Positions 32,339-60,949 of a DNA stretch of 64,000 nt are shown in pieces. Origin of the DNA: Raillietiella orientalis. Its lineage: Eukaryota. Position 1 is the stretch's first letter. Every line of letters starts with the position of its first letter. The translations under genes and the position numbers were made by a program. The notes beneath the pieces were generated by a model. It was given only the letters and a program-made list of their open reading frames with translations. It made no database searches and was not told where the DNA came from. The stretch is taken from assembly GCA_036172245.1 (NCBI GenBank), contig JAYWIR010000001.1, positions 9,052,001 to 9,116,000 of the forward strand. The letters run 5' to 3'.

Positions 32339-34281
32339 TCCGGACGTGGAATCCGTGCGGTGTACGCCCTTTGTCCTACGCCCTGACGTGTGATCACCGT
32401 GCGTTGCACGGAGCGTTGCGGATTCGAATCCCTCCAGGCAGAGGATCGAGGCCAAGAATGGGAGGAGAGGGTGCATCGTGGGTTTCGAGTTCTACCTGCA
32501 GGACGACTCTGGTTGGGCCATTCGGGTGCGGCACTGGTTGACACCCAGTCACGCCGGGGCGTTTATTTCTAAACCTACATGTCTGTGGCAGGACGTTTGA
32601 TCCTGCCACATTACTTATGAATAGGAACAGGAAGCTGCCGGGATCTGGTACGCAGGCCAGCAGGATGCGACTCGGCAGCACGAGGGAAGGGAAGACAAAC
32701 AAAAAGAGAAAAACAAAGAAAAACTGCAGTCAAGAAGGATAAAGGGATCACTGTGTGTTGGAGGGTGCCCTCTGCATCCTTGTAAGGATGCCGGCAAGTT
32801 CCTGTTATATGGTTCCCAGATGGGATCATCTTGACACTATCCTCATGTAGAGGACAGCAAAAATGGATGGCATCCCTGTCTTTCTGTCCTCTGACGTTGC
32901 TCCATACTGCCAAATTATGCAAATTATGCGTAGGCAGCACAGTGCTGTTAGGGATGCGGTCGGCGAGAGGGCGCCGCTCAGGAAGAGGCGTTTTAAAACG
33001 TCTCTGGCACTGCCGCCAGGGGTTCCGAGGCCCGTAACCAAGCGTCCCCAAAGGGGCTGGAGGGCAACACAGTCTATCAGGAGGTGCGGGAAGAAATTCT
33101 GCTCCCCGCACCGTGCACAGTTTGGGTTCACACACCCCCGTGTCCATAGATGCCGGCGGGCGTTGCATGGGAGACTCCAATGCAGTATCATCAACGTCGA
33201 CTCCTTCAAAAGGAGGGTGCAGGTGTTCAGGAGCAACCGGGGGCCACTGTAGGTCTTCCTCCGGAATACCGAGTAGCATGCCCCAGCGCAAAAGTCCACG
33301 AGGTCGAGCACTCGGGGTCGCAGCGTCGGTGAGCTGGCCCATCGTGCAATCGTCCAGTCCTTTCCTCCTTCCGGAGATTTCGACAGTAATCTCCCATCTG
33401 GCCGTAAGGCTGCTGCCCAGATGCTCCCTAAGGGAGGGTAGCGCAGCGGCGAGGGAGGTTCTGTTTGCCCATGTACTCTTCGCGGGATCTTCCAAGATCT
33501 CCTGGAGCGTGCACTTGTTGAGAGCGTGCAGGGAACGTCGCCCTTGTTCCGCGCTTGGCTCCTGGATCTTCGCCCACGTGCGGACGGTTTCTTGCAACCA
33601 GGCATTATCGTTCGCGAGGCGGCACTGGTGGAAGCCAGAAACCCCCGTTGAGGTGGCCAGGACTGGGAGTAGACCATCCTGGGTCCTTCCAGGAACCAAC
33701 AGTCGGTTCCCCTCTGGTTGTGATAATGGAGCCGTACCATGGAGCTGGTTGATACCCCCATCAAGAGGTAGCCTCTCCAGAGCGTAGGAAGCGCTTTTCT
33801 TTTCAGGGAGCGGACCCTTCAGAGAAATTTGGAAGCGTCCCTTGCGGGGTTTCTCTTCCGAAGGATAAACAAGGGACGGTTCCTTCCGAAGAATAAATAC
33901 CTGGAGCGGATCCTTTCTGCGTTCCCTCCGGAGAAGTGGAGGTATCTCCCTCTGTGGGGTCCCTCCTGAGAGAATAAGAAAAGGTGGTTTCCTTCGGGGC
34001 TGCCTCCCCGTAAGAGGAACAACTTCTGGAGCTTTCCCAGATTCATAGGGTGGTTCCTAAGGGGTTGCGCCCTTCAACTTGGAGAGTTGACACGTACCCT
34101 CAGGTGGCATGGGCACCGTCAGAGAGCTTCGTGAGCCCCTGAACAAACGGTTCTTTGGTACTTAGTAGACCTCTTCTCCTCCCCCTTCCCCCCCAAAAGG
34201 AACGCCCCTCAAAAAACAAAAACAAAGCTGAAAGGGAAACAGCGAAACAGAAGAATCCTAAAAGATTTCCATCATTGCCCC
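32339..34281 (+). mobile_element. tRNA-headed SINE-like repeat, copy A (contains LINE insert 32538-33618)
   Basis: B-box-like GGATTCGAATCC at 32420-32431, second GGTTTCGAG motif. Body and tail (…CCATGGAGCTGGTTG…CCTCAGGTGGC…AAAAGATTTCCATC) are shared with the copies at 39.3, 43.5, 53.3 and 58.8 kb. Confidence 0.75.
32538..33618 (-). mobile_element. 5'-truncated L1/Tx1-like LINE fragment (ORF2 C-terminus with zf-RVT zinc knuckle plus 3'UTR) inserted antisense in SINE copy A
   Basis: ILHWSLPCNARRHLWTRGCVNPNCARCGEQNFFPHLLIDCVALQPLW (CxxC..H..C..W), frameshifted. Flanked by direct repeats GCGGCACTGG at 32528-32537 and 33619-33628. Confidence 0.8.
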
Positions 34282-34339
34282 ATGGGAGAGGGTGGAGTGG
34301 AGCTCGCACATGCTGACCCCATGAGTGACTGCTAGTTGG

Positions 34340-58959: not shown

Positions 58960-60197
58960 ATTGACACCCGCTCGCGCCGGGGCATTTGTTTATGAAATAA
59001 ACATACACGTCTGTGGCAGGACGTTTGATCCTTCCACGTTACTTATAACTACGAGGATGAACCTGCTGGGAACGGGCACGAAGGTCAGCGGGGTTCGCCT
59101 CGGCTGCACAGGAAAAGGGGGGACGAACAAAACAAAAAAGAAAAAGAAAAGATAATTCAGTAAAAAAATGAGGGGAAATTCGGGAAGGGATCACTGTGTA
59201 CTGGAAGGCGTCCCCTGCATCCTTGTGAGGAGACCGGCAAGTTCCTGTTGCAAGACTCCCAGATGGGGCCATCCTGACGCTGTCCTCATGAAGAGGATGG
59301 CAAAATAGATGGCGTCCCTGTCGTTCTGGACTCTGGCGTTGCTCCATTCAGCCATGGTCCCGCCGCGTGGATAGCGCCACTGCGGCCGGTGTGAGGGCGT
59401 CGCGCAGGAAGAGGAGCTTTACAACGTCCCTGACGTTGCCACCGGGGGTTCCAAAGGTCGCGGCAAAGCGTCCCCAAAGGGGTCAGAGGACAACACAGTT
59501 CACTAAGAGGTGTGGGAGGGATTCCCGGTTCGGGTCCATCGCTCCTCCCCGCTTCGAATGATGCCGGCGGGCGTTGCATGGGAGGTCCCAGTACAACATC
59601 ATCATTGCCGCCTCCCGCCACTTCAAGGGGAGAGTGTGGGTGTTCATGGGCACCGGGAGTCATTGCAGGTCTTCCTCCGCAATACCCAGTGCAAAAGTCT
59701 ATGAGGTCAAGTAATCGGAGTTGCAGCGTCGGTGAGCTGGTCCGTCGTCCACTCGCCCAGTCCTCTTCTCCTTGGGGAGATTTCCACAGTAACCTCCCAT
59801 CTAGCCGTAAGTCTGCTGCCCATGTGTCCCCTAAGGGAGGGCAGCGCGGCGGCGAGAGAGGTTCTGCTTGCCCACGTACTCTTCACGGGATCTTCCAGGA
59901 TCTTCCGGAGCGTGCAGTTGTTTCCTGTACGCGCGAACGTCGCAACTGTTCCGTGCTTGGCTCTTGTATCCTCGCCTACGTGCGCACGGTTCCCTGCAAC
60001 CACTACCGTTCGCAAGGCGGCAAGAGATCCATCCGGTGTTCAGCGTGGCCACCTGCCGAAAGCAGGTCTTTCCACTAAGGACTGCCGAAAGCAGTCCTTA
60101 GTGGAAAGGACGCGAGTAATACGCTGCCGCAACGAAGGACGCGAGTAATACGCTGCCGCTGGCTTGCTGGACGTGCAGGTTGGCACCAGGTGGTGCG
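58960..60197 (-). mobile_element. 5'-truncated L1/Tx1-like LINE fragment inserted antisense in SINE copy E
   Basis: CTLRKILEDPVKSTWASRTSLAAALPSL…WEVTVEIS is very similar to the 33-kb insert, with the same 3' end (…GGGTGTCAA). Flanked by GCGGCACTG at 58951-58959 and 60198-60206. Confidence 0.8.
60051..60159. repeat. Two adjacent CGAAA-loop hairpins (6-bp and 18-bp perfect stems) followed by a 25-bp tandem duplication
   Basis: ACCTGC-CGAAA-GCAGGT; CTTTCCACTAAGGACTGC-CGAAA-GCAGTCCTTAGTGGAAAG; AAGGACGCGAGTAATACGCTGCCGC twice. Confidence 0.92.
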
Positions 60198-60949
60198 GCG
60201 GCACTGGTGAAAGCCTGAAGCCAGATGCTCCCGTTGACTGATCCGGATTGAAAGTCGACCCTCCGTGGTCGTTCCAGAAATCGAAAGAAATTTCCCTCCA
60301 GTTGCGAAAATGAAGCCGTACCATAGAGTTGGTTGATACCCCCTCCCCGGTGGGGTTGCCTCTCCAGAGTGTCAAGAAGTGCGCTGCGCACTTCAGAGAA
60401 ACTGGGAAGTGTCCCTTCGAGGTTCTCTTCAAATGAGGAAACAAGGAGCGGGGGTTTCCTCCGGAGAAGAAATTCAGGAACGAATGTTCTCCGGGTTCCC
60501 TTCGGAGAAGAAACGAGGAGTGGCTCCCTCTCAGGAGGGGTCTTTCCGGAGAGAATAAGGGAAAGGTGGTTCCCTTCGAGGTTCTCTCCCAAGCGTAAGA
60601 GGAACGACTCCTTCCTCTGAAGCCTTCCTGGATTCATAGGGTGGTCCCTACTGGGTTGTGTCCTCTATGACTTGAAGAGCTGCACGCACCCTCGGGTGGC
60701 GTGGACAGCGTTAAAGAGCTTTGCAAGCCTCCTTAGGGTGACGAACGGTTCTTCGGTGCTTAGTGGAAGAAAAGCAGCGAGAGCAGAGGAACCCAAAAGG
60801 ATTTCCATCCATCAATTCTGATAGCATTGAAGGCACCTTTCCTGTTTCCAGAGGATCATTCGCGACAATCACAGCATACATCCCTCAATGTATGCGTTTT
60901 TAGATGTGTCAGCTATGAGACGCATGGCGAAGTGTTGGTAGTCTGTTAG

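What the first reader, a model, noticed from the sequence alone, without database searches (positions are those of the whole stretch)
32339..60812. A LINE lineage that appears to insert site-specifically into a tRNA-derived SINE (filled and empty sites side by side)
Seen: there are five copies of one SINE-like repeat. Copies B (39448-39456) and C (44166-44174) have a single GCGGCACTG-type site just downstream of the tRNA-like head. Copies A and E carry an antisense zf-RVT LINE fragment exactly there, flanked by a duplication of that site (32528-37/33619-28; 58951-59/60198-206) and with the same LINE 3' terminus (…GGGTGTCAA). Copy D joins LINE sequence at the same site (53933-53938). The three LINE inserts have different 5' ends: E is ~180 nt longer than A, and D starts ~410 nt further 3' than A. 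Established: a fixed 3' junction, TSD and variable 5' truncation are the TPRT signature of target-specific non-LTR elements; Tx1-clade members target multicopy loci such as U2 snRNA, tRNA arrays or other transposons. Inference: either this LINE subfamily uses a dispersed SINE as its landing pad, or one SINE-LINE chimera amplified and later suffered deletions. The A junction shows TGCCGC microhomology, which fits both models. More diverged family members (19.4, 27.4, 35, 47, 61-63 kb) are not in this SINE.
Basis: partly seen in the sequence, partly recalled or inferred. Interest (0 to 1): 0.8.

Follow-up and report, generated by a model that had tools for sequence, protein, structure and literature searches.

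The report
LINE fragments at one SINE-like site
Three of six old copies of a roughly 0.95-kb SINE-like repeat carry a backwards LINE tail at the same spot, which suggests this LINE prefers that site, but one 64-kb window cannot rule out that a single hybrid repeat simply multiplied.

Summary
A roughly 0.95-kb SINE-like retroposon occurs six times in the window, not five. Copies A, D and E carry an antisense LINE 3' fragment at one site; B, C and a newly found degenerate copy F are uninterrupted there.

A and E have the same LINE 3' junction (...GGGTGTCAA, then C or T, then CAGTGCCGC) and a 10-13 nt target-site duplication. D joins the LINE 413 nt further 3' than A, inside that same duplicated interval.

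- E's extra ~175 nt is not shown to be LINE. It is a palindrome-rich segment with a recent duplication, flanked by TGCCGC(C) repeats. A and E also share two host indels, so they may be one event.
- The "tRNA-derived" head is only a B-box/T-arm-like motif.
- No RT or endonuclease domain is in the window, so the LINE clade (Tx1 or other) is untested.

Seven more diverged LINE pieces share the same 3' end motif but have unrelated flanks.

Best reading, about 0.55: at least two independent target-primed insertions (A/E and D), meaning real site preference. Rival, about 0.3: one chimera amplified and was later deleted. Host and LINE genealogies do not separate the two. No genome, sequencing run or related locus could be obtained. 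This would be a new member of a known kind; interest is moderate.

The parts
32339..32537 (+). Copy A of the SINE-like repeat, 5' part (B-box-like head through the target site). The left target-site duplication is 32528-32537.
32538..33618 (-). LINE 3' fragment in A: end of ORF2 with a CCHC zf-RVT-like motif, 3' UTR and the terminus ...GGGTGTCAA.
33619..34275 (+). Copy A, 3' part. The right target-site duplication is 33619-33628. The repeat ends ...GATTTCCATCAT.
39281..40054 (+). Copy B, empty site at 39444-39456. Its 3' region is shorter. Candidate flanking duplication matches 10 of 13.
43505..44347 (-). Copy C, empty site at 44166-44178 (GCAGCACTG). It lies inside a cathepsin-L-like pseudogene.
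53295..53937 (-). Copy D, 3' part only. It starts 7 positions inside the interval that is duplicated in A and E.
53932..54710 (+). LINE fragment in D, antisense to its host. It is 5'-truncated 413 nt further than A, is interrupted by an AT-rich insert at 54303-54618, and has lost its 3' UTR and terminus after about 54710.
58760..58959 (+). Copy E, 5' part. The left LINE target-site duplication is 58951-58959. The repeat-level duplication CAATTCTGAT is at 58750-58759.
58960..60022 (-). LINE 3' fragment in E, colinear with A's.
60023..60197 (.). E-specific segment of unknown origin. It holds a palindrome at 60068-60108 and an exact 23-nt tandem duplication at 60108-60130 and 60137-60159, and is flanked by TGCCGC(C) direct repeats.
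60198..60812 (+). Copy E, 3' part. The right LINE target-site duplication is 60198-60206. The repeat-level duplication is at 60813-60822.
18433..18621 (-). Copy F, a degenerate fragment that spans the site without an insert.
   Evidence: (E 7.8e-09)
19445..20399 (-). Diverged LINE copy k20. It has the same 3' end motif and a flank that is not the SINE-like repeat.
18750..19387 (-). Diverged LINE copy k19, starting within about 60 nt of k20's 3' end (head to tail).
27653..28557 (+). Diverged LINE copy k28, with an intact 192-aa C-terminal ORF carrying the CCHC motif.
62629..63251 (+). Diverged LINE copy k62. It has the same 3' end motif and an unrelated flank.
47407..48097 (-). Diverged LINE pieces k47.
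35471..35774 (+). Diverged LINE piece k35.
   Evidence: E 1.8e-07

Best explanation
A subfamily of a non-LTR retrotransposon inserted by target-primed reverse transcription at one position of a dispersed SINE-like retroposon. This LINE has a CCHC zf-RVT-like ORF2 tail, no poly(A), and a conserved 3' end ...CCGGCGTGAC(T/C)(G/A)GGTGTCAA. It inserted at least twice independently: once in the A/E lineage and once in D.

Shown:
- The junction in the repeat's sense strand reads ...GCGGCACTGG then TTGACACCC...
- It has a 10-13 nt target-site duplication.
- D's 5' truncation point differs from A's and E's.
- Microhomology sits at the 5' junctions: TGCCGC in A, and (C)AGTG..GC in D.

Inferred:
- The element's endonuclease nicks the repeat's sense strand after CACTGG, and that 3'-OH primes the cDNA.
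- The second nick falls 7-13 nt upstream on the other strand.
- The 5' end is sealed by microhomology between the cDNA and the duplicated target.
- The empty copies B and C read CACTGC at the inferred nick, which may make them poorer targets.
- Read-through RNA from resident copies would carry CCAGUGCCGC at its 3' end, complementary to the primer strand, and could reinforce homing. This last step is speculative.
For: - Identical 3' junction and target-site duplication in the 2 of 2 filled copies that still have this side.
- All 3 LINE pieces of this subfamily in the window are at this site and antisense. They are 75-79% alike, against roughly 57-68% to the other LINE copies.
- D's junction lies within the 10-13 nt duplicated interval but 413 nt deeper in the LINE. 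By my estimate, a random deletion ending in that interval would be roughly a 1-in-100 coincidence.
- D keeps the two host segments (13 and 36 nt) that A and E lack and that the empty copies B and C have.
- The host copies have unrelated flanks. E has an exact 10-nt repeat-level duplication, so the hosts are separate retroposition events and not segmental duplicates.
- The 3' terminus is the genuine family terminus, shared by seven copies.
- Target-specific lineages that land in other transposons are documented for the Tx1 clade (PMC4494074, abstract and sections 3, 15 and passages of 20 read).
Against: - Only three filled copies exist, all within 28 kb.
- A and E share two host indels. The A|E grouping is the best-supported host split: 36 against 23 and 15 four-taxon sites, and 12 of 62 five-taxon informative sites.
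- Their 5' junctions differ only by a segment flanked by TGCCGC(C) repeats, so they may be one event.
- LINE and host parts are equally diverged.
- Differences among A, D and E are spread evenly over codon positions. The inserts therefore come from near-identical sources, as a single chimera would predict.
- The host-versus-LINE incongruence is not robust: p = 0.006 against p = 0.22 with conservative columns.
- D has lost its 3' junction and is otherwise rearranged.
- Seven relatives of the LINE lie at unrelated sites.
Confidence: 0.55

Rival explanations
1. Single chimera. One LINE copy inserted once into a master copy of the SINE-like repeat. The roughly 2-kb hybrid then amplified by retroposition. 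A and D later lost LINE 5' sequence through deletions between short repeats next to the inner duplication. B, C and F belong to subfamilies that were never hit.
For: - A and E share two host indels and the strongest host site pattern.
- A equals E minus a palindrome-rich segment flanked by TGCCGC(C) direct repeats, which is a classic slippage substrate.
- LINE and host parts are equally diverged.
- Differences among the inserts carry no codon-position bias.
- The host tree ((A,E),D,(B,C)) is compatible with a single filled clade: BC|ADE has 10 sites.
- E's outer 10-nt duplication brackets the whole hybrid.
Against: - It needs at least one deletion (D), and probably two, ending exactly in the 10-13 nt inner duplication.
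- Polarised sites in the LINE part show no A+E clade: shared-derived counts are AE 3, AD 6, DE 8.
- A 1.1-1.2 kb antisense insert in a master copy would usually stop its transcription. This last point rests on general knowledge and was not tested.
Confidence: 0.3
2. Local DNA-level spread. One insertion was copied among neighbouring repeat copies by gene conversion or unequal recombination within this 28-kb cluster.
For: - D and E share a mosaic of near-identical tracts: 53 of 53 nt at 54250-54302, 88.6% over 88 nt, and 81% in the repeat's 3' part, against about 74% elsewhere.
- The copies are close together and in both orientations.
Against: - Conversion does not create new 5' truncation points at the duplication.
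- The flanks are unrelated.
- Apart from those tracts, the copies are about 25% diverged.
Confidence: 0.07
3. Chance, or a mis-scored repeat. The shared site would be a coincidence of alignment in old, decayed repeats, with no real LINE.
For: - The zf-RVT match is below Pfam's cut-off.
- No RT domain is in the window.
- Only one database relative was found, an 87-aa metagenome protein.
Against: - Junction motifs far exceed the shuffle controls.
- Ten LINE-family pieces share a colinear ORF tail and 3' UTR.
- 27 of 30 best named atlas hits are zf-RVT clusters.
Confidence: 0.03

Closest known systems
Tx1-clade target-specific LINEs that land in other transposons: Tx1L in the piggyBac-type Tx1D, Tx1-Mar in Mariner-N4_AMi, Tx1-9_AMi in Harbinger elements, and Tx1-8_Crp/Tx1-4_AMi in LTR elements (PMC4494074; abstract, sections 3, 15 and passages of 20 read)
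   Same: An APE-type LINE would insert at a fixed position of a dispersed, multicopy mobile element, with a fixed 3' junction, a target-site duplication and 5' truncation. The CCHC motif downstream of RT is typical of the L1/Tx1 group; that point is recalled, and Pfam zf-RVT is only weakly matched here.
   Different: The target here is a SINE-like retroposon, a target class I did not find in four literature searches. Clade membership is untested because the window has no RT or endonuclease. Only 3 insertions were seen, and they may represent 2 events.
Keno, Utopia, Dewa and Mutsu-type LINEs that target small-RNA genes. Keno and U2/5S targets appear in PMC4494074, and Utopia in PMC4640811 (abstract only). 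Dewa and Mutsu are recalled from memory.
   Same: They use a multicopy, Pol III- or snRNA-type sequence as a safe landing pad.
   Different: The site here lies about 90 nt downstream of the B-box-like motif, outside any recognisable RNA-gene part. The U4 gene in the window (63692-63816) is not hit.
Composite or chimeric non-autonomous retroposons, such as SVA-like composites or SINEs that picked up foreign modules (general knowledge, recalled)
   Same: A SINE-like unit with a foreign internal module is present in several copies, each with its own outer duplication.
   Different: The internal module is a LINE 3' end bounded by its own target-site duplication and by different 5' boundaries. This looks like insertion events rather than a fixed module.
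Zepp/ZeppL-type LINE clusters that nest into each other (recalled from memory, not checked in a paper)
   Same: Many 5'-truncated LINE tails are clustered in one region, including a head-to-tail pair, k20 and k19.
   Different: The three subfamily copies are in a different repeat and not in LINE sequence. The organism and the LINE clade are both unknown.

Membership tests
Target-specific non-LTR retrotransposon (functional class) | Same 3' junction at the same target nucleotide in separate copies | tested here: met
   A and E are identical (exact at 32528-45 and 58951-68). D's 3' side is lost.
Target-specific non-LTR retrotransposon (functional class) | Target-site duplication flanking the insert | tested here: met
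   A is 10 of 10. E is 9 of 10, or 12-13 nt with an indel.
Target-specific non-LTR retrotransposon (functional class) | Independent events, shown by different 5' truncation points in unrelated host copies | tested here: inconclusive
   D differs from A and E (413 nt). A versus E is ambiguous. The genealogies are not decisive.
Target-specific non-LTR retrotransposon (functional class) | Most genomic copies of the lineage sit in the target | not testable with these tools
   No genome is held, no runs were listed and no metagenome loci were found. In the window, 3 of 3 subfamily copies are in the target, but 0 of 7 more diverged relatives are.
Tx1 clade (L1 group) of LINEs | RT-domain phylogeny places the element in Tx1 | not testable with these tools
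   No RT is in the window. Ten long ORFs gave no RT family, and the [YFL]xDD scan found nothing RT-like. No full-length relative was retrieved.
Tx1 clade (L1 group) of LINEs | N-terminal APE endonuclease | not testable with these tools
   All copies are 3' fragments of about 1.1 kb or less.
Tx1 clade (L1 group) of LINEs | CCHC zinc knuckle (Pfam zf-RVT) after RT | tested here: inconclusive
   E is 0.0081 and 0.084, below the 27.5-bit cut-off, with the same profile range 30-85 in two copies. 27 of 30 best named atlas hits are zf-RVT clusters, at score 0.93.
tRNA-derived SINE | Head recognisably derived from a tRNA (A and B boxes, cloverleaf remnants) | tested here: not met
   ARAGORN finds 0 genes. 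No tRNA match appears at E up to 10 in the heads of B and C. Only a GGTTCGAATCC B-box/T-arm-like motif is conserved.
tRNA-derived SINE | Short non-coding retroposon with its own target-site duplication | tested here: inconclusive
   E has an exact 10-nt outer duplication. B and C have imperfect candidates. The unit is about 0.95 kb, which is long for a SINE.
tRNA-derived SINE | 3' tail shared with the partner LINE | tested here: not met
   The repeat's tail (...AAAAGGATTTCCAT) has no similarity to this LINE's 3' end. This LINE is therefore not shown to be its mobiliser.

The most novel reading that the evidence does not exclude
This would be a LINE lineage whose landing pad is a dispersed SINE-like retroposon, a target class not found in my literature searches. 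Its endonuclease would cut at CACTGG^T in the repeat. Homing would be reinforced because read-through RNAs from resident copies end in the target sequence and can pair with the nicked repeat. One parasite would then use another, harmless parasite as a genome-wide safe harbour.
Probability: 0.4. Interest if true: 0.6.

Novelty: new member of a known kind. Interest (0 to 1): 0.45.

Why it matters
If confirmed, it extends the list of safe-harbour targets of site-specific LINEs from RNA genes, microsatellites, DNA transposons and LTR elements to a SINE-like retroposon. It would also give a compact natural target, about 20 bp around GCGGCACTGG^TGGAAG, for studying how an APE-type endonuclease gains sequence specificity. 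The empty copies with CACTGC would serve as built-in negative controls. If the chimera model is right, the case is instead an ordinary composite repeat family.

Tried and rejected
- **Whole genome:** none is held for this window.
- **Public sequencing runs:** none was listed for a 10-kb stretch, so no reads could be laid.
- **Earlier scan notes:** nothing by place, sequence or relatives.
- **Protein searches for full-length LINE relatives:**
  - The word-index search with A's 263-aa frame (longer proteins) found none among 3448 candidates.
  - The exhaustive profile search of 1.84 billion representatives gave 2 hits. One is an 87-aa JGI metagenome protein on a 2870-nt contig. The other is a repetitive 1252-aa protein with no LINE domain.
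- **Similarity between the 3' flanks of k20 and k28:** suggested by a MAFFT alignment, rejected by BLAST (best E 0.011 over 17 nt).
- **Homology upstream of the LINE copies:** no similarity was found among any of the upstream regions, or between them and E's extra segment. No longer LINE could therefore be assembled from the window.
- **Target-site duplications for k20 and k28:** none found.
- **Host-versus-LINE tree incongruence:** significant with all columns (p = 0.006; D private differences p = 0.0009) but not with gap-distant columns (p = 0.22 and 0.09). I therefore do not use it as support.
- **Organism identification:** the cathepsin-L-like pseudogene matches animals and plants at only 36-57% identity. 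The organism remains unknown.
- **Literature:** four searches turned up no LINE reported to target a SINE. One candidate paper, PMC9804982, proved irrelevant from the passages read. Supplementary figures of PMC4494074, which list Tx1 targets, could not be seen and might hold such a case.
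Full report
**Setting.** The window is eukaryotic, with no N. GC falls from 0.62-0.65 in the first 17 kb to 0.46-0.54 in the last 16 kb. No whole genome is held. No sequencing run was listed, and earlier notes of the scan hold nothing on it. Everything below therefore rests on the 64 kb itself, one remote protein hit and the literature.

**The host repeat.** BLAST and a profile search show six copies of one repeat, not five:
- A: 32.3-32.54 kb plus 33.62-34.28 kb, plus strand.
- B: 39.28-40.05 kb, plus strand.
- C: 43.5-44.35 kb, minus strand.
- D: 53.3-53.94 kb, minus strand, 3' part only.
- E: 58.76-58.96 kb plus 60.2-60.81 kb, plus strand.
- F: 18433-18621, minus strand, a newly found degenerate fragment (E 7.8e-09).

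HSP identities are 65-81%. Flanks are unrelated. E is bracketed by an exact 10-nt duplication, CAATTCTGAT, at 58750-59 and 60813-22. B and C have imperfect candidate duplications. These are therefore separate retroposition events of a roughly 0.95-kb non-coding unit with an A-rich region near its 3' end.

Its "tRNA-like head" is limited to a conserved GGTTCGAATCC B-box/T-arm-like motif. ARAGORN finds no tRNA in the window. Rfam's tRNA model gives no match at E up to 10 in the two best-preserved heads. I call it SINE-like. Derivation from a tRNA is not shown.

**The insert.** On the opposite strand, A (32538-33618), E (58960-60022) and D (53932-54302 plus 54619-54710) hold colinear pieces of one sequence family. 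Its reading frame ends in a CX2CX7HX4C motif.
- Pfam zf-RVT is the top match in 2 of 6 fragments scanned, over the same profile range 30-85, but below threshold: E 0.0081 and 0.084, 17.2 and 14 bits against 27.5.
- A protein-atlas feature search of the intact 192-aa ORF at 27853-28428 gave zf-RVT clusters for 27 of 30 best named hits, at score 0.93.
- No RT or endonuclease is present anywhere in the window.
- The only database relative is an unnamed 87-aa metagenome protein, E 6.5e-15.

The LINE identity is reasonable. The clade is unknown.

**Other LINE copies.** Seven further, more diverged pieces lie outside the repeat: k20, k19, k28, k35, k47, k62 and a weak tip near 23.86 kb. Five of them, together with A and E, reach the same 3' end, a motif close to AAAYAAAYGCCCCGGCGYGA..GGTG..AA. 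After that point their flanks all differ. ...GGGTGTCAA is therefore the family's true terminus and not a breakpoint. The wider family is not tied to this repeat.

**Junctions.** In the repeat's sense strand:
- The empty site reads GGGTGCGGCACTGC-TGGAA in B, and GCAGCACTGC in C.
- A reads ...GCGGCACTGG | TTGACACCC...(LINE)...GCGAG | GCGGCACTGG-TGGAAG, a 10-nt duplication.
- E reads ...GCGGCACTGA | TTGACACCC ... GGTGCGGC(GGC)ACTGG-TGAAAG, which is 9 of 10, or 12-13 nt allowing a triplet indel.

Shuffle controls confirm these are not chance.

In D, the host starts at profile position 256, inside the interval 249-262 that is duplicated in A and E. The LINE starts at its profile position 273, with a 6-nt overlap at 53932-53937. 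The other LINE copies read AAGTGGCAG at that point, so D's junction sits on an (C)AGTG..GC microhomology. D's LINE then runs to about 54710. It is interrupted by a 316-nt AT-rich insert, and both its 3' UTR and the repeat's head are gone.

**Are the three inserts independent?**

A versus E. E's additional 175 nt (60023-60197) matches no other LINE copy: z is at most 1.5, against 3.8 for a positive control. It contains a 41-nt palindrome and an exact 23-nt tandem duplication, which looks recent in a roughly 25%-decayed context. It is flanked by TGCCGC(C) direct repeats, so that A equals E minus this segment and one repeat copy. Three readings fit:
- independent target-primed joining at a 6-7 nt microhomology;
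- slippage deletion in A;
- later growth of the segment in E.

A and E also share two host deletions (13 and 36 nt) that B, C and D lack, and they have the best-supported host split: AE|BC 36 against 23 and 15, and AE|BCD 12 of 62 informative five-taxon sites. I therefore treat A and E as possibly one event.

D versus A/E. D's 5' boundary is 413 nt deeper in the LINE yet still within the duplicated interval. A later deletion would have had to end in that window of about 13 nt out of a roughly 2-kb hybrid. By my estimate that is a coincidence of order 1%, with only 4-5 nt of microhomology. D also retains the two host segments that A and E lost. This is the main argument for at least two independent insertions at one site and in one orientation, which random insertion would essentially never give.

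**Genealogies do not settle it.**
- In the LINE part (436 columns), private differences are A 54, D 36, E 46. Shared-derived states polarised by k20 and k28 are AE 3, AD 6, DE 8.
- In the host part (509 columns), they are A 62, D 78, E 41.
- The contrast is nominally significant: chi-square p = 0.006, and Fisher p = 0.0009 for D. It fades when columns within 5 nt of a gap are dropped: host 35/32/22 of 272, LINE 42/25/33 of 336, p = 0.22, and p = 0.09 for D.
- D and E share near-identical tracts: 53 of 53 nt, 88.6% over 88 nt, and 81% in the repeat's 3' part. This suggests local gene conversion and further blurs the trees.
- Differences among A, D and E are spread evenly over codon positions, for example 46/46/45 for A-E. 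The inserts thus descend from near-identical sources and decayed neutrally. That fits a burst from one LINE master as well as a single chimera.

**Mechanism proposed.**

Shown: the cDNA start TTGACACCC is joined to ...GCGGCACTGG. The duplication is 10-13 nt, or 7 nt or less in D. Microhomology sits at the 5' junctions.

Inferred:
- First-strand nick after CACTGG on the repeat's sense strand.
- Second nick 7-13 nt upstream on the other strand.
- Microhomology-assisted 5' joining.
- The empty B and C read CACTGC at the nick, a possible reason they stayed empty.
- The LINE RNA's own 3' end (..UCAA) does not pair with the primer. A read-through RNA from a resident copy would pair with it (CCAGUGCCGC). 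Co-transcription with the target is discussed for R2-type elements in PMC4494074 (passage of section 20). This step is speculative.

**Comparison with known systems.** Tx1-clade LINEs are documented to target a piggyBac-type element (Tx1D), Mariner-N4_AMi, Harbinger and LTR elements, U2/U5/5S genes and microsatellites (PMC4494074, abstract and sections 3 and 15 read). A LINE homing to another mobile element is thus a known kind. A SINE-like target did not appear in four literature searches. The supplements of that paper could not be read. Membership in Tx1 is untested.

**Verdict.**
- Site preference is the best explanation at about 0.55.
- A single amplified chimera stands at about 0.3, local conversion at about 0.07, and artefact at about 0.03.
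- Novelty: new member of a known kind.
- Interest: 0.45. It would rise to about 0.6 if a genome census confirms targeting.

Noticed in passing
window 63692-63816 (+): A U4 spliceosomal snRNA gene (Rfam RF00015, 55.5 bits, E 1.1e-09, full length). It lies about 440 nt downstream of the 3' end of LINE copy k62 and is not itself interrupted.
   Followed up: partly
window 43189-45482 (+): A cathepsin-L-like (I29 plus Peptidase_C1) sequence without introns but with frame breaks, probably a processed or decayed pseudogene. SINE-like copy C (43505-44347) sits between its inhibitor and protease parts. Best database identities are only 36-57%.
   Followed up: partly
window 54303-54618: A 316-nt very AT-rich insert inside D's LINE fragment, with no other copy in the window. 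Its nature is unknown.
   Followed up: no
window 18750-20399 (-): Two diverged LINE tails, k20 and then k19, lie head to tail, with k19 starting within about 60 nt of k20's 3' end. The degenerate SINE-like copy F follows, with its profile match starting about 130 nt past k19's 3' end. This looks like a nested or tandem retroelement cluster.
   Followed up: partly
window 54250-54302 vs 59280-59332; 53412-53627 vs 60494-60709: D and E share tracts of 100% (53 nt) and 81-89% identity in sequence that is otherwise about 74% alike. This suggests gene conversion between two inverted copies about 5 kb apart.
   Followed up: partly
window 60023-60197: A segment with a 41-nt palindrome and an exact 23-nt tandem duplication at the LINE/host 5' junction of copy E. 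Its origin is unknown: LINE 5' sequence, junction filler or later rearrangement.
   Followed up: partly
window 9355-9656; 45837-45890 vs 45979-46031: A 317-nt self-inverted match (72.6%) and a pair of 54-nt inverted repeats at 96% identity, seen in the self-comparison. Neither was examined.
   Followed up: no
window 1-17000 vs 48000-64000: GC content drops from 0.62-0.65 to 0.46-0.54 across the window. No Pfam family was found in the 10 long ORFs that were scanned.
   Followed up: no
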